64,000 nucleotides of DNA from Candidatus Bathyarchaeota archaeon (GTDB lineage Archaea; Thermoproteota; Bathyarchaeia; Hecatellales; Hecatellaceae), in assembly GCA_052246995.1 (NCBI GenBank), contig JBQPWD010000006.1, positions 64,001 to 128,000 of the forward strand. The letters are read 5' to 3'. The position numbers and the translations under genes are program-made. Numbering within the stretch: position 1 is the stretch's first letter; every line of letters starts with the position of its first letter. Under the pieces are notes generated by a model that saw nothing but the letters and a program-made list of their open reading frames with translations, was not told where the DNA came from and made no database searches. This document shows, in pieces, positions 19,060 through 36,159 of the stretch.

Positions 19060-20772
19060 ATGGAAACTCTTTCTCATGACCTTGTAATTGTAGGTTCAGG
19101 TCTTGCAGGTCTTAGAGCTGCTATTGAAGCAGCTTACACCTCAAAATCTAAGCTGGATATAGCAATAATATCTAAAACTCACCTTATGCGTGCGCATTCT
19201 GTTTGTGCTGAAGGTGGCACAGCAGCTGTTCTAAGGCCCGAAGAAGGAGATAGTTTTGAGCTTCACGCATGGGATACTATTAAGGGAAGCGACTTTCTTG
19301 CTGACCAAGATGCCGTAGAAATATTTGTTAAAAGCATGCCTGAAGAAATATTTCTACTTGACCATTGGGGAATTCCTTGGAGTAGGAGAGAAGATGGAAA
19401 AATAGACCAAAGACCTTTTGGAGGTCATAGCTTTAACAGGGCTACCTATGCTGAAGATAGAACAGGATTCTATGAAATGCATACCCTTTACGACATTCTT
19501 CAAACATTTGAGAACGTAAAGGTTTACGAGGACCACTATGTAACATCCCTAATTGTTGAAAACGGAGAATTTAAAGGTTTAACAGCTTTAGACCTTAAAT
19601 CAGGTAAATTTATTGCTTTTAAGTCTAAAGCTGGAATAATCGCAACAGGTGGAGGGGCAAGATGTTACGCTTTCACAACATATTCACATCCAGCTACTGG
19701 CGATGGTATTGTTATGGCTTATAGAGCCGGAGTACCCATGAAAGATATGGAGTTCATTCAATTCCACCCTACGGGGCTTGTCCCCTCTGGAATACTGATA
19801 ACAGAGGCTGCAAGAGGTGAAGGTGGCTATTTAATCAACAGCAAGGGTGAACGTTTCATGAAAAAATATGCACCTGAACGTATGGAGCTTGCCCCAAGAG
19901 ATATTGTTTCAAGGTCAATCATAAGAGAAATTGAGGAGGGATGTGGATTTAAAGGACCTGATGGTTTAGATTATGTTCACCTAGACCTTACACACTTGGG
20001 CAAGGAAAAGATAGTTGAAAGGCTACCTCAAATACGTGAAGTTTGCCTTAAGTTTTTAGGAATAGATATTGTTAACGAACCTATACCTATCAGGCCTGCA
20101 GCCCACTACAACATGGGCGGTATCCATACAGATATTAACGGAGCTACACCGGTAAAGGGTTTATGGGCTGCGGGAGAGTGTGCATGTGTAAGTGTACATG
20201 GGGCAAATAGGCTTGGAACAAACTCCACTGCGGAATGCTTAGTTTGGGGTAAGATTACTGGTAGGGAGGCAGCAAAATATGCCATGTCCCATGAATCTGA
20301 ATCAAGCTTAGCTGGAGAGATGTTAAAAAGAGAGGAGGATAGAGTTTATGGTTTTATGCGTAAGGAAAGTGGAGAAAACAGTTATGGAATTTTAAGGGAG
20401 CTTAGAAGCCTTATGGATAGATATGTTGGAATATTTAGGAAGGGGGATGAGCTAGAACTAGCCGTAAAAAGGATTAAAGAGTTGAAGGAGAGGTTTAACA
20501 ATGCCACAGTTTATGATAAAAGTAGCGTTTACAACACAGACCTTATAGCTATGCTTGAACTTGACAACCTACTCACTATAGCTGAAGTTGTTGCGACTGG
20601 CGCCCTTCTTAGAAAGGAGTCTAGAGGAGCTCACGCTAGACGAGACTATCCTAAACGTGATGATGAAAATTGGCTTAAACATACATTAGCATACTGGAGG
20701 GTTGATGGGATTAGATTTGAGTACCTACCTGTAACGATTACAAGGTGGAAACCTGTAGAAAGAAAGTACTAG
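19060..20772 (+). CDS. Succinate dehydrogenase/fumarate reductase flavoprotein subunit (SdhA/FrdA/TfrA family)
   Basis: GSGLAG, RAHSVCAEGG (covalent-FAD His), QFHPTG, TEAARGEGG, LAPRD, HYNMGG, HGANRLG, ESRGAH. Confidence 0.95.
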   Translation: METLSHDLVIVGSGLAGLRAAIEAAYTSKSKLDIAIISKTHLMRAHSVCAEGGTAAVLRPEEGDSFELHAWDTIKGSDFLADQDAVEIFVKSMPEEIFLLDHWGIPWSRREDGKIDQRPFGGHSFNRATYAEDRTGFYEMHTLYDILQTFENVKVYEDHYVTSLIVENGEFKGLTALDLKSGKFIAFKSKAGIIATGGGARCYAFTTYSHPATGDGIVMAYRAGVPMKDMEFIQFHPTGLVPSGILITEAARGEGGYLINSKGERFMKKYAPERMELAPRDIVSRSIIREIEEGCGFKGPDGLDYVHLDLTHLGKEKIVERLPQIREVCLKFLGIDIVNEPIPIRPAAHYNMGGIHTDINGATPVKGLWAAGECACVSVHGANRLGTNSTAECLVWGKITGREAAKYAMSHESESSLAGEMLKREEDRVYGFMRKESGENSYGILRELRSLMDRYVGIFRKGDELELAVKRIKELKERFNNATVYDKSSVYNTDLIAMLELDNLLTIAEVVATGALLRKESRGAHARRDYPKRDDENWLKHTLAYWRVDGIRFEYLPVTITRWKPVERKY

Positions 20773-20789
20773 TTTTTGAGGGGAGGTAA

Positions 20790-22373
20790 ATGAGTACGGT
20801 AAAAGCTGAAAAAGTTGTAAAGTTTAAAATTCAAAGGTTTGACCCCTCAAAAGATGAGAAACCATATTTTATAGAGTATGAAGTCCCGATTGTTAAAGGA
20901 ACAACAATACTTGATGCTTTAATATATATAAAGCAGAACCTTGATAGTACGCTATCCATGAGATATTCGTGCAGAATGGGCATCTGCGGCTCATGTGCAA
21001 TGATTATTAACGGAATTCCTAGGCTTGCATGTGAAACACAAGTGCTTCAACTTGGAGAAGATGTTGTAGAAATTCAGCCGTTATCAAGTTTTCCACATGT
21101 AAGGGATCTTATCACCGATTTTAAAACGTTCTTTGCTAAGCATAAAAAGGTTAAAAGTTTCCTTATAAGGAAAGATGTTAAAGAACAGTTTAACCCTAAA
21201 GCTGAATACCTACAGCCTAAGGAAAAATTGAAGGAAATTTTGCCCTATACTAGATGTATTACGTGTGGAGTGTGTTATGCGTCATGCCCGGTAATAATTA
21301 AGAATGAAGGTTTCCTTGGTCCGGAAGCGTTAGCTAAGGCTTACCGCTACATTAGTGATTCTAGAGATGAGGGTGTTGAGAAAAGAATACCGACCTTGGA
21401 AGAGTATCCCCATGGCTGCTGGAGTTGTACAACCTGTTCAACATGTAAATTAAATTGTCCTAAAGAGGTTAGCGGTGTTGACTCGGTTATTAACATAAGG
21501 TCAATAATGACAGAAAAAGGTAAAATTCAGCCAACTCTTAGAGATGCGTTGGAAAGCATGTATCTACATGGTAACCCTTGGGGTAGGATTAGAGATAAAA
21601 GGTCAGCGTGGATACAGGACCAGAATCTAAGTATAAAGGATTTTTCAAAGGGTGAAAAAGCAGAATTATGTTGGTTTGTTGGTTGTACTCCAGCTTATGA
21701 CCCAAGAGTTCAGCAGGTTGCAGGAGCATTAGCAAGGATTTTACAAAAAGCTAACACTAATTTTGCTGTTCTGGGGAATGAGGAAAGTTGCTGTGGTAAT
21801 GAAGCTTATAATGTGGGGGAAATGGGGTTGTTCGATGAATTAAAAGAAGCTAATTTAAAACTTTTTGAGAAGTACAACATAGGTAGAGTTATAACTACAA
21901 GCCCACACTGTTATAATGCCTTTAGGAGTAGGTATGGTAAAATAAGTTTTGAAGTTCAACATTACACCCAATACTTAGCTGAATTGATTGAGAAGGGTAA
22001 ACTTAAATTTTCAAGGAAAGTTGAGAAAGTTGTAACTTACCATGACCCATGCTACCTTGGAAAAATTAATGAAGTTTACGAGGCGCCAAGGAAGGTTATT
22101 GAAAGTATTCCAGGAGTTAAATTTAAAGAACTACCTAGGTCTAGGAGAATGAGTTTATGCTGTGAAGGAGGAGGCGGGCTTATGTGGATGGATGTTCCAA
22201 CACCAAGACTTGGGGAATTTAGGGTTAAAGAGGCCATTGAAGTTGGCGCTGAGGTAATTCTTGTTTCATGTCCATTCTGCATGATAAACTTGGAGGATGC
22301 TGTTAAAACCACGGGCAATGAAGATAAGATTAAAGTTTTAGATGTGGCAGAGTTTCTTCTTGAAGAAATCTAA
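20790..22373 (+). CDS. SdhB-type Fe-S subunit fused to two CCG (HdrB/HdrD-like) domains, TfrB-like
   Basis: CRMGICGSC [2Fe-2S], CITCGVCYASCP and CTTCSTCKLNCP, then FVGC...SCCG...SPHC and YHDPC...CCEGGG...SCPFC. Confidence 0.9.
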   Translation: MSTVKAEKVVKFKIQRFDPSKDEKPYFIEYEVPIVKGTTILDALIYIKQNLDSTLSMRYSCRMGICGSCAMIINGIPRLACETQVLQLGEDVVEIQPLSSFPHVRDLITDFKTFFAKHKKVKSFLIRKDVKEQFNPKAEYLQPKEKLKEILPYTRCITCGVCYASCPVIIKNEGFLGPEALAKAYRYISDSRDEGVEKRIPTLEEYPHGCWSCTTCSTCKLNCPKEVSGVDSVINIRSIMTEKGKIQPTLRDALESMYLHGNPWGRIRDKRSAWIQDQNLSIKDFSKGEKAELCWFVGCTPAYDPRVQQVAGALARILQKANTNFAVLGNEESCCGNEAYNVGEMGLFDELKEANLKLFEKYNIGRVITTSPHCYNAFRSRYGKISFEVQHYTQYLAELIEKGKLKFSRKVEKVVTYHDPCYLGKINEVYEAPRKVIESIPGVKFKELPRSRRMSLCCEGGGGLMWMDVPTPRLGEFRVKEAIEVGAEVILVSCPFCMINLEDAVKTTGNEDKIKVLDVAEFLLEEI

Positions 22374-29689: not shown

Positions 29690-30028
29690 TTACTTTTCAG
29701 GTTTGTAGTATACTAGCTGTTTCTGGTAGGCTGGAGGTTGGTAAGCTGGTTCAGCCTTTATTGCTTTTTGAAGACAATTTTCAACACAAACATGGCAGTA
29801 TATACACTTGTAGGGGTCATAGGTTATAGTTTTAGCTTCAGGGTCAACTTTTATAGCTACAGGCGGACATAAACGTTCACAATCTTGACATAAATCACAT
29901 TTTTCCATGTCAAAAACTATTATTCGTCCTCTATGTTCAGAGAAGGGTTCCCTTCTGATGAAGGGATGTTTAACTGTTGCAGGTTTTGAGAAAAGGTTTT
30001 TCAGTATGTTTGGAAGCATCCAAACCAT
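29690..30028 (-). CDS. echF: Ech hydrogenase 2x[4Fe-4S] subunit (NuoI-like)
   Basis: KNLFSKPAT..P...RG, CDLCQDCERLCP, CIYCHVCVENC. Confidence 0.9.
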   Translation of the reverse strand: MVWMLPNILKNLFSKPATVKHPFIRREPFSEHRGRIIVFDMEKCDLCQDCERLCPPVAIKVDPEAKTITYDPYKCIYCHVCVENCLQKAIKAEPAYQPPAYQKQLVYYKPEK

Positions 30029-30030
30029 TC

Positions 30031-31158
30031 CTAAACCCCTCCATCTTTTTTAACATGGATTATACGCTCAGTACAAGCTAAACATGGGTCTATAGATAGA
30101 ACTATTACAGGTATGTCTGCAATCTCATATCCTGGAAGCATAGCAAGAAGGGGTGGAATGTTTGCAAGGGTTGGTGTTCGAATTTTAACCCTTTCAAGCC
30201 TATTTGTTCCATTTCCCTTAACGTAGTAGAAAAGTTCACCTCTAGGTTGCTCAACCCTAGCTACAGCCTCACCTTCAGGCCATTTTTCAGGTTTAACAGC
30301 AATTTCACCTTCAGGCATGGTTTTTAATGCTTCAAGGATTAAGTCTATAGCTTGATATACTTCATAAAGCCTTACAAGTGTTCGTGCGTAAGCATCACCA
30401 TCCTTCTCTACTATAGGCTCAAATTTAAGATGCTTGTATGCTTGATATCCCTCAAGCCTAATATCCTTCGCTACGCCACTTCCACGTGCAGTGGGACCTA
30501 CTGCTCCAAGCCTTAAAGCATCGTCATAAGATAAGAAGCCCTTACCCACTGTCCGTTTTTTAAATGCAGGATCTTTGAGAATTACTGGAGCAAGCTTGTC
30601 GACTCTTCTTTTAAGGTCTAACATACTTTCCTTAAAATGCTCAACCAATGGACCTGAAATATCTCTTCTAACCCCACCAACTATGCATGTTGAAATTATA
30701 ACCCTGTTTCCGCTTGTGCGTTCTTGGAGGTCCATTACAATCTCCCGGTCTCTCCAGAACTGCATAAAGAGACTTTCAAACCCCATAGCATCAGCAAAAA
30801 GGCCTAGCCATAAGAGGTGGCTTTCAAGCCTGTTAAGCTCAGCCCATATAACCCTTAAATATTTAGCTCTTTCAGGAACTTGAACATTTACAAGCTTTTC
30901 TAAAGCCATACAGTAGCATAAAGCATGCATAAAGTTGCATATTCCACAAACTCTTTCACATAGGTATACATTTCGTTGATAATCGTTAAGTTCACAAGCC
31001 CTCTCAATACCACGGTGGACGTAACCTATATTTACACCTACATCAACAATTTTCTCCTCGTCAACCATAAACCTAAGCTGAACTGGTTCAGGTAAAACTG
31101 GGTGCTGAGGGCCAAAAGGTAAAACGGTATACTTTCGCGTAGTTTTACCTTCACTCAT
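30031..31158 (-). CDS. echE: Ech [NiFe]-hydrogenase large subunit
   Basis: PFGPQHP, GYVHRGIE, ERVCGIC and DPCLAC Ni-binding pairs. The ATG at 31158 overlaps the upstream stop (ATGAGTGA). Confidence 0.95.
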   Translation of the reverse strand: MSEGKTTRKYTVLPFGPQHPVLPEPVQLRFMVDEEKIVDVGVNIGYVHRGIERACELNDYQRNVYLCERVCGICNFMHALCYCMALEKLVNVQVPERAKYLRVIWAELNRLESHLLWLGLFADAMGFESLFMQFWRDREIVMDLQERTSGNRVIISTCIVGGVRRDISGPLVEHFKESMLDLKRRVDKLAPVILKDPAFKKRTVGKGFLSYDDALRLGAVGPTARGSGVAKDIRLEGYQAYKHLKFEPIVEKDGDAYARTLVRLYEVYQAIDLILEALKTMPEGEIAVKPEKWPEGEAVARVEQPRGELFYYVKGNGTNRLERVKIRTPTLANIPPLLAMLPGYEIADIPVIVLSIDPCLACTERIIHVKKDGGV

Positions 31159-32929
31159 ACCAATCACACCTCCAACACCTTTTAGCTTCCTTAACAGCCT
31201 CCTCAACACTATAACCTAACTCAACTTCACTAAAACCTCTAACTCTCACTTCTACTGGAAGAAGTTTTATGGGGACCTTACTTAACTCTAAAACTTCTTC
31301 AACGTTAACTCTTGGAATAAGTTCTTCAATAAGCTCATACTCTTTAAGCCCACTTCCACCTAGATACCTGTCAATGGCGTTAGCAGCTTTCCATCCTGCA
31401 CCCACGGCTTCGGTAACTGAGGCTGGACCTGTTACAACATCACCACCAGCAAAAACTCCGCGTATGTTTGTTTCCAACGTTTTAGGGTTAACTTCAACTT
31501 GTCCACGCCTATCTAGTTTAAGCCTAGAAGTTTTAGGTGGTGTTGCAACTTGACCTATGGCTTTAATAAACGTGTCAGCTTCAACAGTAAACTCGCTTCC
31601 AGCTATGGCTTCAGGTCTAGGTCTGCCTGAAGCATCAGGTGCACCAAGTCGCATTCTTATAAACTCCATTTTTGCAGAAGAGCTTCCACCTAAAACTTTG
31701 GTTGGAGCGACAAGAAATTCGAATTTAACACCCTCAGCCTCAGCCTCTTCAACTTCTCTTGGTGATGCAGGCATCTCCTTCCTAGTCCTTCTGTAAAATA
31801 CTGTTACATCTTTAACTCCAAGCCTTAAAGAGACTCTAGCAGCATCCATAGCACTATTACCCCCACCAATAACAACAACTTTTTCACCAAGTTTAGGTTT
31901 TTTACCGTGGAGATTGACTTCCATTAAAAGTTGAAGACAGCTTAAAACTTTTGGATGGTCTTCACCCTCAATACCGAGCCTAGCATCCTGGTGTGCCCCT
32001 GTAGCTATGAAAATAGCGTCATAACCCTCATTCAAGAAGGTATCTAAATTCTCAATCTTCTTTTTAAGTTTAAGCTCAACTTCAGCTTCCTCCATTCTAG
32101 CATTAATTTCATCCTCTAAAATCTTTTTAGGAAGCCTATATTCAGGTATGTATGTAAGCATAGCTCCACCAGGTTTAGGAAGCTCGTCAAAAACTGTAAC
32201 CTCATGACCTAAAACGCCGAGATAGTAGGCTGCGGTTAAGCCTGCTGGACCTGCACCAATAACAGCAACCCTTTTACCAGTAGATTTAAGCTTTTTGATG
32301 TTGAGATTTTTGATACCAACATACTCAGCTACAAACCTTTTAAGCAGTCTTATAGATATAGGCTGACCATTTTTAGCCTGTCTACAACCATCCTCGCATG
32401 GAGCAAAGCAAACTCTTCCAAGAATGGCTGGGAAAGGAGTTTTTTTAAGGATTGTTTGAAAAGCATCCACGTATTTTCCTTGACTTATAAGTCTAACATA
32501 TCTTGGAACATCTATTTCAGCGGGACATTGTTGAGCACATCTTGCTTTTACCCTAAACTTTGGAGGTTGAACACCTACAGCAGGTTTTAAAAGGGTTGTT
32601 TGAGATGCATCAGCAGTTTTTAAAAGCCTCCCTCCAAGGTCAGGATTTAAACCTACAATGTTAAGGTTAAACATATCTTTTATCTCGTTTTCAGCAAGAA
32701 ATGCACAAGGATAAATACTAGTTATGCTTGGTAAAACATCACTTTTTCTAATTTTAACCTTAACATTTACAACCTTCAAGTTCTCTTCAAAATGATATAT
32801 AACCTCAAAAAATTCACCTAAATCTCTACATGTTATAGTTATAAATCTAGCATTAGACGCAGCAAGCTCGTAGATTTTGGGTATAAGGTCAGCTTTATCT
32901 ACAAATACATCAACAACATTAGTGGCCAA
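31151..32929 (-). CDS. EchD (NuoC-like) domain fused to a GltD/NfnB/SudA-like FAD- and Fe-S-containing NAD(P)H oxidoreductase
   Basis: About the first 115 aa: RFITITC...IYHF...PSITSIYPCAFLAENEIKDMF. Then CAQQCP, GRVCFAPCEDGC, GAGPAG, IPEYRLP, GGGNSAMDAAR, YRR, FAGGD and terminal EAKRCWRC. Confidence 0.92.
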   Translation of the reverse strand: MATNVVDVFVDKADLIPKIYELAASNARFITITCRDLGEFFEVIYHFEENLKVVNVKVKIRKSDVLPSITSIYPCAFLAENEIKDMFNLNIVGLNPDLGGRLLKTADASQTTLLKPAVGVQPPKFRVKARCAQQCPAEIDVPRYVRLISQGKYVDAFQTILKKTPFPAILGRVCFAPCEDGCRQAKNGQPISIRLLKRFVAEYVGIKNLNIKKLKSTGKRVAVIGAGPAGLTAAYYLGVLGHEVTVFDELPKPGGAMLTYIPEYRLPKKILEDEINARMEEAEVELKLKKKIENLDTFLNEGYDAIFIATGAHQDARLGIEGEDHPKVLSCLQLLMEVNLHGKKPKLGEKVVVIGGGNSAMDAARVSLRLGVKDVTVFYRRTRKEMPASPREVEEAEAEGVKFEFLVAPTKVLGGSSSAKMEFIRMRLGAPDASGRPRPEAIAGSEFTVEADTFIKAIGQVATPPKTSRLKLDRRGQVEVNPKTLETNIRGVFAGGDVVTGPASVTEAVGAGWKAANAIDRYLGGSGLKEYELIEELIPRVNVEEVLELSKVPIKLLPVEVRVRGFSEVELGYSVEEAVKEAKRCWRCDWYE

Positions 32930-32932
32930 CTT

Positions 32933-33376
32933 TTAACCACCCACCTTTTTTTCTGCAAGTTTTTGTAAGGCTAAAACTACTCCATCTATAATAGCTTCAG
33001 GCCTTGCGGCACAACCTGGAACATAAACATCAACAGGTATAACCTTATCAACCCCACCAAGTATATTTGGGCAGTTATGGAAAATACCACCTGAACATGC
33101 ACATGTACCTATGGCAACAACAACCTTAGGTTCAGGTGTTTGAGCATAAAGGGTTTTAAGCACCCTTGCATTTCTCCTGTTAGCTGGACCAGTTACAAGT
33201 AGAATGTCAGCATGCTTTGGGTTTCCCATGTGAAGCATTCCAAACCTTTCAACATCAAATCTTGGAGTTAAGCATGCCAAAACTTCTATATCGCAACCGT
33301 TACAGCTTCCACAGTTAAAATGTAGTATCCAAGGAGATTTAAGTCTGGCTTTAGCCATTAAACCCATACTAACCAC
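32933..33376 (-). CDS. echC: Ech hydrogenase small subunit
   Basis: SCNGCDIE, FDVERFG, GTCACSGG, YVPGCAARPEAI. Confidence 0.95.
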   Translation of the reverse strand: MVSMGLMAKARLKSPWILHFNCGSCNGCDIEVLACLTPRFDVERFGMLHMGNPKHADILLVTGPANRRNARVLKTLYAQTPEPKVVVAIGTCACSGGIFHNCPNILGGVDKVIPVDVYVPGCAARPEAIIDGVVLALQKLAEKKVGG

Positions 33377-34223
33377 CTCTAAGTAAAGCTACAGCTAAAA
33401 TGTTTGAAATTGTAAGAATAAAGCCTGCAATCCATGTAATCTTCAATAGCAGTTTCCAGGTAAGTCTTGGAAAGATGTTGTCAATAATCATAGTTATAAA
33501 GTAAAAGATGAAGGAGAGGACAGCTCCAAGCCATAGGTTTGGAGACCAGAAAATTGTAAGAAATGACAAGAAAAATACAAGTTTAAACCAGTGACCAAGC
33601 TCTATAAAAGCTAAAGAAAAGCCCGAGAACTCTGTAAAAACTCCGCGCACTATTTCTTGGTGTGCATGATGAGAAGCTGAAATATCAAATGGTGATTTTC
33701 TAGCTTCAACTGGTAAAATTATTAGAAGTGTAAGGAAAATTGCTGGAAGCATTGCTACTAGTGGAAAATTAAGCTGAAGAATGCTTGAAACAAGGAAGCT
33801 TTTAGTAACCATAAAAATCCCCATAATTGTTAAGATTAAGATTGGTTCACAGCTAAGCATTTGAAGAAGCTCCCTTCTTCCCCCAATATAGCTATAGGGA
33901 GACCTTCCAGCAAAACTTCCAACAACTAAACATACATCAGCCAGTGAAATAACAAACACTATTAACAAAAGGTCTTGAGCTAAAACTAGCAAACTAAAAG
34001 CAACAACTGAAAAAGCCATGTAGGAAAATGCAAGCAAAACCTGTAGATTGCTCGCAACAAAACTTTCTTTACCCCAAAGCTTTATTAAATCATAAAATGG
34101 TTGAATTATCGGTGGACCGATTCTGTTTTGTATTCTTGCTGTAAGCTTTCTATCTATCCCACTTAATATTCCACCTATAAATGGCGCTACAACCACAAGT
34201 ATAAGAGATAGATACCACTCCAT
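33369..34223 (-). CDS. echB: Ech membrane subunit (NuoH-like)
   Basis: GIDRKLTARIQNRIGPPIIQPFYD, KSPFDIS.SHHAHQEIV.G..TEFSG. Confidence 0.93.
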   Translation of the reverse strand: MEWYLSLILVVVAPFIGGILSGIDRKLTARIQNRIGPPIIQPFYDLIKLWGKESFVASNLQVLLAFSYMAFSVVAFSLLVLAQDLLLIVFVISLADVCLVVGSFAGRSPYSYIGGRRELLQMLSCEPILILTIMGIFMVTKSFLVSSILQLNFPLVAMLPAIFLTLLIILPVEARKSPFDISASHHAHQEIVRGVFTEFSGFSLAFIELGHWFKLVFFLSFLTIFWSPNLWLGAVLSFIFYFITMIIDNIFPRLTWKLLLKITWIAGFILTISNILAVALLRGG

Positions 34224-34227
34224 AACC

Positions 34228-36159
34228 TCACACCACCAGACTTAAAATGAAAACAAGTATTGCTAAAAATACGCCAATTAAGGTTACATATTTGTTGGTT
34301 TGAGCCTCACCAAGCCTTCTATCAAAGAACATTCCTGAGATTTCAAGCTTATATTCCAAGTCAGCTGTGGAGTGAAAGGTTGTTGATTCCTTACCAGCAA
34401 CATTTTCACCACACATATATGGAGGAACAGATTTTCCACCTTTAGCTCTAACAATAAGAAAACCTGTAAAGAAAATTAAAGCTAAAACTATGAAAAGCGG
34501 CCATATTGGAAAAGCTCCAACATTTGTTAAAATATTTAGCTGAGGAAGTGACAATTTAACTACGTACCATGGTTTTATTCCTGGAATTATTAGTGTTGAT
34601 ATGAAGATTGCTGCTAGAACGGTTACGATGATATCTAAAACTGTTATAGTAATGGTTGAGGTTAAGTATGGTGCTTGAAGTTTTTCAACCTTAGCTTTCC
34701 CGGTTCTAGGTGGGTGAAGAAGAAGATGCGCCATCCATTTTGCCCAGAAAAATGTTGTTGCAACACTTCCAACAACAACAATAACTACAAGGGATATTGC
34801 CCATTGAAGCGGCGTCTCAGATATTACAGCCTCCAAAGTTAACCATTTACCGACCAACATTCCAAATGGCGGGAGAAACATTGTAGACATACCTATAAGC
34901 ATAATTGTTGAGGTTAAGGGAAGTTTTGCCATAATACCCTCCCAATCTTCAATATTCCTACTATAAACCCTATTCTCAACAATTCCAGCTCCAAGAAAGA
35001 GTAAAGCCTTAGACATTGCGTGAAAAACAAGTAAAAGTAAAGCTGCAACCATAGCTAATGATGTATTAACCCCTGCACATAAAATTATAAGACCAAGATT
35101 TCCTATGGTAGAGTATGCTAATATACGTTTAGATTCTCTTTGAGTTATAGCTAAAATGGCTGTAACTAGAAAACTTAAACCTCCAACAGCAGCTATGGCT
35201 AAGCTTAAATATGTATCCTTAAAGGCTGGAACAATTCTAAGCACCAGATACACTCCAGCTTTAACCATGGTGCTGGAGTGTAGTAATGCTGAAACAGGAG
35301 TTGGAGCAATCATTGCCCCTAAAAGCCAACTATGAAATGGAACTTGTGCTGACTTTGTAAATGCTGCCAATGCTAAACAGGCAAAGGCTAAGAGTATAAT
35401 AGGTGAATGAGGGACTAACATAAGCTCGTTAAGACTTAAACTTCCAACTTGATAATAGCCTATAAAGATTGAAGCTACAAAAGCTACTCCGCCTATTAAC
35501 CCCATCCACAGGGCTAAAACAGCGTTTTTTACAGCTTGAGGTGTTTCATCATGCTTAATAAGCTGATAACAACATAACGTGGTAACTTCCCAGAAGAAGT
35601 ATAACCAGTAAAGGTTGTTAGCAAAAACTAAACCATTCATAGCTCCAAGAAAAAGTATCATATATAGGAAGAATCTAGGCTGCCTGGTTTCTGTTAAATG
35701 TAAATGTTCTTCATGCTCATCCATGTAGCTTAAAGCGTAAACACAAATAAGTGAACCTATAATGCAGACAATTAAGGCCATTATTATGGATAAGGAATCT
35801 ATCATAAACGTAGGTTTAACATGAACAACAGGAAGAGATAATTCAAAGTAGGCTAAAGGTATAATTTGAAGTAGAGTTAAGAAAACTACTAATGGATGTT
35901 TAACTCTGAAACCTATGTATAGGAAGTAAGCTAAAAGTGCAAAATCTAAGGCGACTATTACATCGTCCCAAATTTCATGTAAATTAAGAGTGTATAATGC
36001 TCCGTTAACCAATCTAACCAGTAAAAGTGAAGCTGTTATCAGAATGATGGTTGTTAAACTAACGAAAATCATCCGAGCTTTAGCATTCTTCAACCATCTA
36101 ACTATAAACCCCATAATTGGCGGAAAAACCACCAGCATAATTGGAATCCATTCATCCAT
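34228..36159 (-). CDS. echA: Ech antiporter-like membrane subunit (NuoL/MrpA-like)
   Basis: FFWEVTT, TKSAQVPFHSWLLGAMIAPTPVSALLHSSTMVKAG, LAYST, PPFGML..KW. Confidence 0.93.
   Translation of the reverse strand: MDEWIPIMLVVFPPIMGFIVRWLKNAKARMIFVSLTTIILITASLLLVRLVNGALYTLNLHEIWDDVIVALDFALLAYFLYIGFRVKHPLVVFLTLLQIIPLAYFELSLPVVHVKPTFMIDSLSIIMALIVCIIGSLICVYALSYMDEHEEHLHLTETRQPRFFLYMILFLGAMNGLVFANNLYWLYFFWEVTTLCCYQLIKHDETPQAVKNAVLALWMGLIGGVAFVASIFIGYYQVGSLSLNELMLVPHSPIILLAFACLALAAFTKSAQVPFHSWLLGAMIAPTPVSALLHSSTMVKAGVYLVLRIVPAFKDTYLSLAIAAVGGLSFLVTAILAITQRESKRILAYSTIGNLGLIILCAGVNTSLAMVAALLLLVFHAMSKALLFLGAGIVENRVYSRNIEDWEGIMAKLPLTSTIMLIGMSTMFLPPFGMLVGKWLTLEAVISETPLQWAISLVVIVVVGSVATTFFWAKWMAHLLLHPPRTGKAKVEKLQAPYLTSTITITVLDIIVTVLAAIFISTLIIPGIKPWYVVKLSLPQLNILTNVGAFPIWPLFIVLALIFFTGFLIVRAKGGKSVPPYMCGENVAGKESTTFHSTADLEYKLEISGMFFDRRLGEAQTNKYVTLIGVFLAILVFILSLVV

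What the first reader, a model, noticed from the sequence alone, without database searches (positions are those of the whole stretch)
29690..36159. Ech-type membrane hydrogenase with a built-in NAD(P)H module (EchD fused to a GltD/NfnB-like flavoprotein)
Seen: six tightly coupled genes in canonical echABCDEF order. The large subunit keeps both Ni-binding CxxC pairs (RVCGIC, DPCLAC), so this is a hydrogenase rather than an Mbx/Fpo-like complex. The fourth gene is 592 aa instead of a small EchD: an EchD/NuoC domain continues in frame through a short linker into a complete Fe-S/FAD/pyridine-nucleotide oxidoreductase. Established: characterised Ech complexes (Methanosarcina, Desulfovibrio, Thermoanaerobacter) exchange electrons with ferredoxin, and EchD carries no cofactor. 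Inference: the complex covalently tethers an NAD(P)H-reacting arm, functionally like the N-module of complex I but from a different protein family. It could couple H2 directly to NADP(H) with ion translocation, or act with ferredoxin in an electron-bifurcating/confurcating mode. I know of no description of this fusion but cannot search the literature.
Basis: partly seen in the sequence, partly recalled or inferred. Interest (0 to 1): 0.88.

Follow-up and report, generated by a model that had tools for sequence, protein, structure and literature searches.

The report
Membrane hydrogenase with fused NADPH module
An uncultured hot-spring archaeon carries a six-gene membrane hydrogenase whose normally cofactor-free small subunit is fused to a complete NADPH-binding iron-sulfur flavoprotein, so the enzyme probably links hydrogen gas directly to the cell's NADPH pool and to an ion gradient.

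Summary
Six tightly packed minus-strand genes (29690-36159) encode NuoL-, NuoH-, NuoB-, NuoC-, NuoD- and NuoI-like subunits in echABCDEF order. The large subunit keeps both [NiFe] motifs.

The fourth gene (592 aa) is a NuoC/EchD domain, a length-constrained connector and a complete GltD/NfnB-type module. That module has seven invariant Cys plus one Lys for two [4Fe-4S] clusters, and FAD and NADPH motifs.

It is not an assembly artefact. Independent contigs bridge the junction, at least 120 protein clusters share the architecture, and the same six-gene cassette occurs in six other genomes (archaea and one Chloroflexota).

The module most resembles the non-bifurcating NADPH entry module of StnC/NfnABC: 41% identity, the same permuted Cys tail, and Lys where bifurcating NfnB has Glu. 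The genome has no NuoF-like gene.

A shortened form lacking the NADPH domain sits in nine-gene Dehalococcoides-type ech clusters beside NuoE/NuoF-like genes.

Best reading (0.55): an ion-coupled NADPH:H+ (H2:NADP+) oxidoreductase. Activity, direction and cluster distances are untested, because the complex model was not folded. Ten full-text searches found no description. I rate it a new variant of a known kind.

The parts
34228..36159 (-). echA: NuoL/MrpA-like antiporter-type membrane subunit, 643 aa
   Evidence: Pfam Proton_antipo_M 1.1e-54 and Proton_antipo_N 6.5e-11. NCBIfam best hits are Mrp subunit A, hydrogenase-4 subunit D and NuoL, all below their cut-offs.
33369..34223 (-). echB: NuoH-like membrane subunit, 284 aa
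   Evidence: Pfam NADHdh 1.8e-45.
32933..33376 (-). echC: NuoB-like small subunit, 147 aa, with a CxxC...GTC...PGC pattern for one [4Fe-4S]
   Evidence: Pfam Oxidored_q6 2.2e-32. NCBIfam NF005012 scores 147.6 bits, above its cut-off of 116. The Cys pattern was read in the translation.
31151..32929 (-). Fused subunit, 592 aa: EchD/NuoC domain + connector + permuted GltD/StnC-type Fe-S flavoprotein
   Evidence: Pfam Complex1_30kDa + Fer4_20 + Pyr_redox_2. NCBIfam PRK12771 covers residues 122-588. AF2 model has pLDDT 88.8. At least 120 full-architecture clusters exist.
32624..32929 (-). NuoC/EchD domain (aa 1-102)
   Evidence: Pfam residues 11-103. The nearest 50%-level relatives are mostly stand-alone NuoC-like proteins of 93-226 aa at up to 49% identity. 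The model is confident here, with block pLDDT 77-94.
32567..32623 (-). Connector (aa 103-121), low model confidence but constrained in length, with conserved L113, K115 and P116
   Evidence: pLDDT is below 50 for residues 103-121. The span from residue 92 to 131 is 36-40 aa in 42 of 42 homologues, and 39 aa in 33 of them. L113 is conserved in 39/42, K115 in 40/42, P116 in 37/42 and R126 in 40/42.
32318..32548 (-). Fer4_20 core (aa 128-204) with C131, C135, C174, C178, C182 and K197
   Evidence: profile positions 29-108. These residues are invariant in 42/42. K197 aligns with StnC K170.
31394..32272 (-). FAD and NADPH Rossmann domains (aa 220-512). The NADPH sub-domain is about aa 318-478 (nt 31496-31978)
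   Evidence: Pfam Pyr_redox_2 residues 220-512. G225/G227/G230, G355-G357, Y379, R380 and R381 are invariant. The segment of about 318-478 is missing in the Dehalococcoides-type proteins.
31154..31312 (-). C-terminal tail (aa 540-592) ending in RCWRCD. It supplies C585 and C588 and corresponds to the N-terminal piece of classical GltD/NfnB (a circular permutation)
   Evidence: The tail at 550-589 aligns to residues 4-43 of NfnB 4ylf_B and 8-46 of 5jca_L. Fer4_20 profile positions 2-28 match this tail. C585, W586, C588 and D589 are invariant in 42/42.
30031..31158 (-). echE: [NiFe] large subunit, 375 aa, with L1 CGICNFMH and L2 DPCLACTER and a 10-aa C-terminal extension
   Evidence: Pfam Complex1_49kDa 2.6e-60 and NiFeSe_Hases 2.9e-12. 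Motifs found. Best solved relatives are MbhL 6cfw_L (4.5e-74) and HycE 7z0s_E (1.1e-69). Relatives are named 'ech hydrogenase subunit E' by JGI.
29690..30028 (-). echF: NuoI-like 2x[4Fe-4S] subunit, 112 aa
   Evidence: Pfam Fer4 dicluster families. Eight Cys are invariant in 14 of 14 sequences. Relatives are named 'ech hydrogenase subunit F' by JGI.

Best explanation
[quoted passage not shown] Its electron-input site is built in: the EchD/NuoC subunit carries, on a connector of fixed length, a StnC-like, non-bifurcating NADPH dehydrogenase module.

Proposed electron path:
1. NADPH donates a hydride to FAD.
2. Electrons leave one at a time through the proximal [4Fe-4S] (C174, C178, C182, K197).
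3. They pass to the distal [4Fe-4S] (C131, C135, C585, C588).
4. They cross to the two clusters of EchF, then the cluster of EchC, then the [NiFe] site of EchE, where H+ is reduced. The whole path may also run in reverse, from H2 to NADP+.

The small free-energy difference would be exchanged with an H+ or Na+ gradient through EchB and EchA, as in Ech and complex I. The net reaction is an ion-coupled, reversible NADPH + H+ <-> NADP+ + H2.

Shown here: the genes, the domains, all cofactor ligands, their conservation, and the conserved cassette.

Inferred: NADPH rather than NADH, contact between the module and EchF, ion coupling, and direction.
For: (1) Architecture and motifs.

(2) All ligands for two [4Fe-4S] clusters, the FAD GxGxxG, and the second Rossmann fold with Y379-R380-R381 are invariant in 42 of 42 fused homologues. 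The same YRR(T/S) motif stands in all five closest solved chains. NADP(H) binding is documented here only for StnC and for NfnB 5jca_L, by its entry title.

(3) The closest solved structures are the NADPH-binding parts of NfnABC subunit A (9bov_A, 9n5u_A) and StnC (8oh5_C; 41% identity, TM 0.71). In StnC this domain binds FAD, NADPH and two [4Fe-4S], does not bifurcate, and feeds a linear Fe-S wire (PMC10482914, passages read).

(4) The ligand that differs between StnC (K170) and bifurcating NfnB (Glu) is Lys here: K197, 42/42.

(5) No Complex1_51K (NuoF-like) gene was found in the own genome, which is 100% complete by markers. This gene is the genome's only Fer4_20 match above the cut-off. 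No other NAD(P)H module is therefore available to this complex.

(6) Natural deletion series. In two of two loci read (L142 in G424, L143 in G964), the fused protein lacks exactly the NADPH Rossmann domain. In both, NuoE-like, NuoF-like and Fer2_4/Fer4 genes are inserted between echC and the fusion.

(7) The same echA-B-C-fusion-E-F cassette is present in six other genomes: L001, L106, L107, L108, L109 (cut by a contig end) and L128 from Chloroflexota. Both [NiFe] motifs are present in 6 of 6 EchE read, the window's included.

(8) HypD is present in the genome, and a HycI-family protease lies beside the 11-subunit complex, so [NiFe] maturation is possible.
Against: - No biochemical or expression evidence. 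The only RNA-library hits (X9, 284-b and 274-b contigs) may be DNA carry-over, and the tool says transcription is not shown.
- The geometry between the module and EchF is unknown. The AF2 monomer gives no confident placement of the two halves: the connector has pLDDT below 50.
- NADPH versus NADH rests on motif likeness only.
- The nearest relatives of the module all work inside electron-bifurcating complexes, so a bifurcating role cannot be excluded from sequence. The Arg that H-bonds flavin N5 in NfnB is conserved here (R265, 41/42) as it is in StnC, so it does not discriminate.
- EchF may still accept ferredoxin.
- The free-energy span between NADPH and H2 is small (textbook potentials of about -320 and -414 mV, recalled), so ion pumping may be marginal.
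Confidence: 0.55

Rival explanations
1. Electron-confurcating or bifurcating membrane hydrogenase. NADPH and reduced ferredoxin together drive H2 formation (or H2 reduces both), with the fused flavin as the branching point and EchF as the ferredoxin site.
For: The module belongs to the NfnB/StnC/NfnABC lineage, all parts of bifurcating enzymes. R265, the counterpart of NfnB R201, is conserved in 41/42. Characterised Ech enzymes use ferredoxin (recalled; PMC6349859 passage).
Against: The proximal-cluster ligand is Lys, as in StnC, whose FAD was shown not to bifurcate. It is not Glu as in NfnB. Only one Fe-S path leaves the flavin. No NfnA-like or NuoEF/HydBC-like partner is in the operon, and no NuoF-like gene is in the genome.
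Confidence: 0.15
2. A ferredoxin-dependent Ech in which the fused module is a side exit. Electrons from ferredoxin entering at EchF can go either to H+ or to NADP+, so the complex doubles as a ferredoxin:NADP+ reductase rather than coupling H2 to NADPH.
For: The same cofactor chain allows it. A gltD-related flavoprotein in mbx-like operons of Thermotoga was interpreted as an NAD(P)+ reduction site (PMC4758237, passage read). This gene is the genome's only Fer4_20 match above cut-off, so the complex may be a main source of NADPH.
Against: Nothing in the sequence distinguishes it from the main reading. Electron flow from ferredoxin to NADP+ would bypass the coupling site at the EchE/EchC/EchB interface, so the conserved linkage to a complete hydrogenase cassette would be unexplained.
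Confidence: 0.15
3. The flavoprotein part is an inactive structural remnant or scaffold, and the enzyme is an ordinary ferredoxin-dependent Ech.
For: In the Dehalococcoides-type relatives the module has lost its NADPH domain yet is retained. This shows that part of its role can be that of a wire or scaffold.
Against: In the 592-aa form every cofactor ligand and both dinucleotide motifs are invariant in 42/42 sequences spanning 47-94% identity. That is not expected for a decaying domain.
Confidence: 0.05
4. Assembly chimera or sequencing error that joins an echD gene to a neighbouring gltD-like gene.
For: None found.
Against: Three contigs from two studies bridge the junction without indels. 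120 of 120 listed homologous clusters from NCBI, JGI, ENA and Logan carry PF00329 with PF14691 and PF07992. The connector length is conserved.
Confidence: 0.01

Closest known systems
Ech hydrogenase (six-subunit group 4 [NiFe], e.g. Methanosarcina barkeri EchABCDEF; recalled, and PMC4683180 passage)
   Same: Same six subunit families in the same gene order. Both [NiFe] Cys pairs are kept. There is one antiporter-like subunit plus one NuoH-like membrane subunit. JGI names close relatives of EchE and EchF 'ech hydrogenase subunit E/F'.
   Different: [quoted passage not shown] Here it is fused to a module with FAD and two [4Fe-4S]. The predicted donor or acceptor is NADP(H), instead of or besides ferredoxin. 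The HydDB subgroup (4e versus 4g) was not determined.
StnC of the StnABC transhydrogenase (8oh5) and subunit A of NfnABC (9bov, 9n5u)
   Same: 41% identity and TM 0.71 over the GltD-like part. The Cys-bearing tail follows the flavoprotein in the same permuted order. The proximal cluster has a Lys ligand. The FAD, NADPH and YRR motifs match.
   Different: Those proteins embed the module in NuoG-like or formate-dehydrogenase-like domains and work with NuoE/NuoF-like partners. Here the module ends right after RCWRCD, hangs on a NuoC domain, and the genome has no NuoF-like gene.
NfnB of NfnAB (4ylf_B, 5jca_L) and GltD of glutamate synthase
   Same: Same fold (TM to target 0.76-0.79), with two [4Fe-4S], FAD and NADPH sites.
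   Different: The N-terminal Cys segment is moved to the C-terminus. Lys replaces Glu at the proximal cluster. No NfnA or GltB partner is encoded.
Nine-gene ech cluster of G424 and G964. The EchE of G424 is 100% identical to a protein cluster that NCBI labels Dehalococcoides mccartyi
   Same: echA, echB, echC ... echE, echF are present, with EchE 62% identical to the window's. A NuoC + Fer4_20 + FAD-domain fusion keeps the same connector, Cys set, K197 and RCWRCD tail.
   Different: The fusion is 464-472 aa and lacks the NADPH Rossmann domain (window residues about 318-478). NuoE-like, NuoF-like (with two extra Fer4) and Fer2_4/Fer4 genes are inserted before it.
N-module of respiratory complex I (NuoEFG)
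   Same: Works alike: pyridine nucleotide, then flavin, then an Fe-S chain, then NuoI, then NuoB, then a catalytic site at the membrane interface.
   Different: Unrelated protein family (FMN-binding NuoF versus FAD-binding GltD type). The acceptor is H+ at a [NiFe] site, not quinone.
Soluble NAD(P)-coupled [NiFe] hydrogenases (groups 3b and 3d; HydDB table read)
   Same: Same predicted net reaction, NADPH + H+ <-> NADP+ + H2.
   Different: Those enzymes are cytoplasmic, have other diaphorase subunits, and have no membrane arm and so no ion coupling.
mbx-like operons of Thermotoga with a gltD-related flavoprotein (PMC4758237)
   Same: A GltD-type NAD(P)H protein is recruited to a complex related to group 4 hydrogenases.
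   Different: There it is a separate gene, said to replace NuoI, and the large subunit has only vestigial Ni-Fe Cys. I did not examine those loci.

Membership tests
[quoted passage not shown] | Large subunit with L1 C[GS][ILV]C[AGNS]xxH and L2 [DE][PL]Cx[AGST]Cx[DE][RL] (motifs as printed in PMC7886697) | tested here: met
   CGICNFMH at residue 71 and DPCLACTER at residue 357. Both are also present in 5 of 5 EchE of the other fused operons read.
[quoted passage not shown] | NuoB-like small subunit, NuoI-like 2x[4Fe-4S] subunit, and NuoH-like and NuoL-like membrane subunits, in one operon | tested here: met
   Pfam hits. Eight Cys are invariant in EchF.
[quoted passage not shown] | Small stand-alone EchD without prosthetic group | tested here: not met
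   The NuoC domain is the N-terminus of a 592-aa Fe-S flavoprotein.
[quoted passage not shown] | Ferredoxin as redox partner; H+/Na+ translocation | not testable with these tools
   Needs enzyme assays.
[quoted passage not shown] | HydDB subgroup assignment (4e versus 4g and others) | not tested
   No HydDB classifier or labelled reference set was on hand. The best solved relatives are MbhL and HycE.
GltD/NfnB-type Fe-S flavoprotein (Fer4_20 + Pyr_redox_2) | Ligands for two [4Fe-4S] clusters | tested here: met
   C131, C135, C174, C178, C182, C585, C588 and K197 are invariant in 42/42. Assignment to proximal and distal clusters is by alignment to StnC and NfnB, not by a structure.
GltD/NfnB-type Fe-S flavoprotein (Fer4_20 + Pyr_redox_2) | FAD-binding and NADPH-binding Rossmann motifs | tested here: met
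   G225/G227/G230 and G355-G357 with Y379-R380-R381 are invariant. These are motifs only; binding was not shown.
Bifurcating NfnB (NfnAB) | Glu ligand at the proximal cluster, and an NfnA partner giving a second electron branch | tested here: not met
   Lys stands at the aligned position. No NfnA-like gene is in the operon, and there is no other Fer4_20 protein above cut-off in the genome.
StnC / NfnABC-A type NADPH module | Cys-bearing segment placed after the flavoprotein domain, and a Lys ligand at the proximal cluster | tested here: met
   PMC10482914 passages.
StnC / NfnABC-A type NADPH module | NuoG-like domains and NuoE/NuoF-like (StnAB) partners | tested here: not met
   The protein ends at RCWRCDWYE. 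No Complex1_51K match was found in the genome.

The most novel reading that the evidence does not exclude
This is a minimal, self-contained respiratory machine of a kind not yet characterised: a six-subunit, ion-translocating H2:NADP+ oxidoreductase. In it a group 4 hydrogenase acquired its own pyridine-nucleotide module from the GltD family, independently of the NuoEFG module of complex I. It would give anaerobes a direct, energy-coupled link between H2 and the NADPH pool, either pumping ions when NADPH is burnt to H2 at low H2, or using the gradient to make NADPH from traces of H2. The Dehalococcoides-type nine-gene clusters would be a later stage, in which the NADPH domain was lost and a NuoEF-type module took over.
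Probability: 0.45. Interest if true: 0.85.

Novelty: new variant of a known kind. Interest (0 to 1): 0.72.

Why it matters
Known energy-converting hydrogenases are linked to ferredoxin, formate or CO. Known NAD(P)-linked [NiFe] hydrogenases are soluble and conserve no energy. A membrane hydrogenase wired to NADPH would be a new coupling site in anaerobic bioenergetics.

It would also change how hydrogen and redox budgets are read from the many Chloroflexota and archaeal genomes that carry it. One Atlas cluster of 681 members looks like this protein.

It offers a natural parallel to the origin of complex I, in which a hydrogenase core gains an NAD(P)H-oxidising head, with a second stage visible in the ech cluster of a genome whose EchE carries the label of a cultured genus.

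Practically, a six-subunit NADPH-driven or NADPH-producing hydrogenase from thermophiles would interest people working on H2-based cofactor regeneration.

Tried and rejected
- **Complex model.** met a full queue. The job was accepted and returned 'NOT FOLDED' by a likeness filter. It gives no result either way and was not repeated, so the Fe-S distance test remains open.
- **Suspected second paralogue.** A 587-aa frame with a NuoC match elsewhere in the genome looked like a second NuoC-GltD copy. Pfam shows it is a NuoC-NuoD fusion in a different complex. Rejected.
- **The search for related loci with the fused alignment.** Of the 80 loci kept, 79 hold GltD-type relatives without a detectable NuoC part, and only L001 holds the fusion. 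The scan therefore says little about how common the fusion is.
- **Phylum samples.** The full-length fusion was found in 5 of 401 genomes of the window's phylum, the window's own genome included. It was found in 1 of 401 Chloroflexota (threshold 1e-140, which by construction misses the shortened type; only 3 candidates per genome were scored).
- **Expression.** RNA-library run X9 holds short contigs at 99% identity over 31200-31481 and 31621-31858. The tool warns that DNA can be present in such libraries, so I do not count this as transcription.
- **Literature.** Ten full-text searches and passages of 13 papers gave no description of a NuoC/EchD-GltD fusion. Two Dehalococcoides papers read by passage search (PMC6005880; PMC2930330) do not discuss it. 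Two further papers were not held.
- **HydDB subgroup.** Not obtainable with the tools on hand.

Full report
**What is in the sequence**

Six ORFs lie head to tail on the minus strand between 29690 and 36159. Neighbouring genes are 2-4 nt apart or overlap by 8 nt. Pfam assigns them, in order:
- a NuoL/Mrp-type antiporter subunit (643 aa)
- a NuoH-like subunit (284 aa)
- a NuoB-like small subunit (147 aa)
- a 592-aa protein with Complex1_30kDa (residues 11-103), Fer4_20 (128-204) and Pyr_redox_2 (220-512)
- a NuoD-like [NiFe] large subunit
- a NuoI-like 2x[4Fe-4S] protein (112 aa)

NCBIfam agrees and places residues 122-588 of the fourth protein in PRK12771/PRK12814, 'NAD(P)-binding protein / putative NADPH-dependent glutamate synthase small subunit'.

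The large subunit most likely starts at the ATG at 31158, giving 375 aa. That is the length of the full-coverage homologues P0284 and P0285. It carries both [NiFe] motifs, CGICNFMH and DPCLACTER (motif definitions from PMC7886697).

Flanking genes are unrelated: a GMC oxidoreductase, a nucleotidyl transferase, a hydrolase and a glycosyltransferase. The window is archaeal by its other genes, which include CDC48, diphthamide synthesis, tRNA-intron endonuclease and an exosome subunit.

**Is the fusion real?**

- In public runs, a 20-kb contig (X1) spans 31000-33500. Shorter contigs from X3 and, in another study, X5 bridge the connector without insertions or deletions. X1 or X3 may be the source sample. 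X5 is an independent relative.
- A search of 5.8 billion proteins listed 120 best clusters. All 120 carry PF00329 together with PF14691 and PF07992, and most are 588-617 aa long. They come from NCBI, JGI, ENA and Logan assemblies labelled Nitrososphaeria (94% identity), Odinarchaeia, Hecatellales, Methanomethylicota, Korarchaeum, Bathyarchaeota, Dehalococcoidia and Planctomycetota. About 23 of them add an N-terminal response-regulator receiver domain and are 716-724 aa long (checked for P0035).
- The ESM Atlas places the protein at score 0.99 beside a 681-member cluster. That cluster is 73% bacterial, with Chloroflexota the commonest phylum.

**The N-terminal domain**

Searched alone against 1.84 billion representatives, the first 118 residues find 503 proteins at E <= 0.001. 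The best 150 are almost all stand-alone NuoC-like proteins of 93-226 aa, at up to 49% identity. Five fused representatives (P0114, P0135, P0138, P0216, P0145) and one NuoC-NuoD fusion are among them. It is therefore an ordinary short EchD/NuoC domain.

The AF2 model (pLDDT 88.8) folds both halves with confidence and leaves residues 103-121 undefined. The connector is not a loose spacer, however. The distance from residue 92 to Cys131 is 36-40 residues in 42 of 42 homologues, and 39 in 33 of them. L113, K115, P116 and R126 are conserved.

**The flavoprotein module**

In 42 fused homologues spanning 47-94% identity, the following are invariant:
- C131, C135, C174, C178, C182, C585, C588 and K197
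- the FAD GxGxxG
- the second Rossmann GGGN with Y379-R380-R381

The last 40 residues (...EAKRCWRCD) align to the N-terminus of classical NfnB (4ylf_B residues 4-43, 5jca_L residues 8-46). Fer4_20 profile positions 2-28 match this tail, while positions 29-108 match residues 128-204. The domain is thus circularly permuted.

StnC and subunit A of NfnABC share this arrangement, and they are the closest solved structures: 9bov_A, 8oh5_C (41% identity, TM 0.71) and 9n5u_A. NfnB, GltD and dihydropyrimidine dehydrogenase follow.

The Stn paper (PMC10482914; passages read) shows three things about this domain of StnC:
- it binds FAD, NADPH and two [4Fe-4S]
- it does not bifurcate
- it passes electrons one by one into a linear Fe-S chain

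The same paper shows that its proximal cluster has a Lys ligand (K170) where bifurcating NfnB has Glu. In the phmmer alignment K197 of the window protein stands at K170, and NfnB has Glu there.

**Comparative evidence for function**

The same six-gene cassette was found wherever I could read the surroundings of a full-length fusion:
- L001 (a Bathyarchaeota MAG)
- G109 (same genus, 88% identity)
- G032, G236 and G398 (another family of the phylum, 48-52% identity)
- G490 (Chloroflexota; its EchE matches the window's at 4e-158)

G398 is cut by its contig end.

The cassette is patchy. It occurs in 5 of 401 sampled genomes of the window's phylum, the window's own genome included, and in 1 of 401 Chloroflexota.

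The window's genome is 1.53 Mb and 100% complete by markers. It has no NuoF-like gene, and this gene is its only Fer4_20 match above the cut-off. It does have HypD, and a HycI-family protease lies beside the 11-subunit complex.

The most telling comparison came from EchE relatives. A cluster labelled Dehalococcoides mccartyi is 62% identical to the window's EchE and is encoded, at 100% identity, in G424. There, and in G964, the gene order is:
1. echA, echB, echC
2. a NuoE-like gene
3. a NuoF-like gene with two extra 4Fe-4S motifs
4. a Fer2_4/Fer4 gene
5. a 464-472-aa NuoC-Fer4_20-flavoprotein fusion
6. echE, echF

The alignment shows that this shorter fusion keeps the connector, all Cys, K197, the FAD motifs and the RCWRCD tail. 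It lacks exactly the NADPH Rossmann domain, window residues about 318-478. So where the fused module has lost its own pyridine-nucleotide site, a separate NuoEF-type site is encoded beside it. Where the site is intact, as here, no such genes exist. This is two loci, not a survey.

**Most likely mechanism**

The proposed path is NADPH -> FAD -> proximal cluster (C174/C178/C182/K197) -> distal cluster (C131/C135/C585/C588) -> EchF -> EchC -> [NiFe]. It would be reversible, and the energy difference would be exchanged with an ion gradient through EchB/EchA, as in Ech and complex I.

By textbook potentials (recalled: H+/H2 -414 mV, NADP+/NADPH -320 mV), the reaction runs toward NADPH at high H2 and toward H2 at low H2. 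In either direction the span is small, comparable to that used by ferredoxin-dependent Ech.

The cofactor sites and the conserved context are shown. Contact with EchF, NADPH preference, ion coupling and direction are inferred. I put this reading at 0.55.

A confurcating enzyme that needs NADPH and ferredoxin together (0.15) and a ferredoxin-fed enzyme with an NADP+ side exit (0.15) remain possible. A dead domain (0.05) and an artefact (0.01) are unlikely.

**Comparison with what is known**

By subunit set, gene order and motifs this is an Ech-type group 4 hydrogenase. It fails the feature 'small cofactor-free EchD' (PMC4683180), and its HydDB subgroup is undetermined.

The module is a member of the StnC/NfnABC-A branch of GltD-like proteins by permutation and Lys ligand. 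It lacks their NuoG-like domains and NuoEF partners.

It works like the N-module of complex I but is built from another family. Its net chemistry is that of soluble group 3b/3d hydrogenases (HydDB table), but on a membrane arm.

A gltD-related gene in mbx-like operons of Thermotoga has been noted before (PMC4758237). That is the nearest printed precedent I found.

**Novelty and limits**

Ten full-text searches returned no description of a NuoC/EchD-GltD fusion or of an NADPH-linked Ech. That covers open-access papers and bioRxiv only. The searches were exhausted before the Dehalococcoides link turned up, so older genome papers on that organism, which I could not read, may mention the gene.

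The complex prediction that would have tested the Fe-S distance was not folded.

I therefore rate the finding as a real, widespread but apparently uncharacterised variant of a known enzyme class. It has a clear and testable mechanism.

Noticed in passing
G424:C1 (L142 2075-11163) and G964:C1 (L143 5732-14830): This is a nine-gene ech cluster: echABC, a NuoE-like gene, a NuoF-like gene with an N-terminal extension and two extra 4Fe-4S motifs (a HydB/StnB-like layout), a Fer2_4/Fer4 protein, a 464-472-aa NuoC-Fer4_20-FAD-domain fusion lacking the NADPH domain, then echE and echF. It looks like a membrane hydrogenase carrying an Stn/HydBC-type module. The EchE of G424 is identical to a cluster labelled Dehalococcoides mccartyi.
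   Followed up: partly
Proteins P0026-P0079 and others; P0035 checked: About 23 of the 120 best fused homologues (716-724 aa; one is labelled Dehalococcoidia) carry a response-regulator receiver domain in front of the NuoC domain. This suggests phosphorylation control of a hydrogenase subunit.
   Followed up: partly
own genome G000:C4, L084 5866-13541: This is a second group-4-like complex: an HdrB-like CCG protein, an antiporter subunit, NuoH, a 4L-like subunit, a NuoC-NuoD fusion (583 aa, both [NiFe] motifs), two Fer4 proteins and NuoB, with GcvH next door. It resembles the Ehd/Ehe-type HdrB-linked complexes described for Culexarchaeia and Methanomethylicia (PMC9723716).
   Followed up: partly
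own genome G000:C4, L085 638-11230: This is a third complex: an 11-subunit Nuo/Fpo-like cluster whose NuoD homologue has the L1 motif CGICSFIH, with a HycI protease gene beside it. The strict L2 pattern did not match. It resembles the 11-subunit hydrogenase reported for termite-gut Bathyarchaeia (PMC7886697).
   Followed up: partly
window 19060-22373 (+): An SdhA-like flavoprotein (570 aa) is followed by a Fer2_3 + Fer4_8 + two CCG-domain protein (527 aa). This is the layout of a thiol:fumarate reductase (TfrAB)-like enzyme.
   Followed up: no
L068 3336-13444 (Thermodesulfobacteriota MAG): A nuo-like cluster has a 659-aa protein made of the NuoF C-terminal 4Fe-4S region + Fer4_20 + Pyr_redox_2 between nuoD-like and nuoH-like genes. 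This is another, different recruitment of a GltD-type module to a complex-I-like enzyme.
   Followed up: no
L069 1117-11452 and L066 (Bathyarchaeia MAGs): A GltD-type protein with a C-terminal 2x[4Fe-4S] ferredoxin domain (584-588 aa) lies near a NuoD-like [NiFe] large subunit, a NuoB-Fer4 fusion and a 1008-aa HdrA-like protein. No membrane subunits were seen in the stretch read.
   Followed up: no
window 32945: Contigs of runs X1 and X3 carry one extra T behind 32945, four codons before the echC stop. This would change the last residues of EchC. It is either strain variation or a homopolymer error in one of the assemblies.
   Followed up: no
L107, L108, L128 versus window 30031-30060: EchE ends directly after DPCxxCTER in three of the six fused operons, but has a 9-10-aa extension in the window, L001 and L106. 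The need for C-terminal proteolytic maturation may therefore differ within the family.
   Followed up: no
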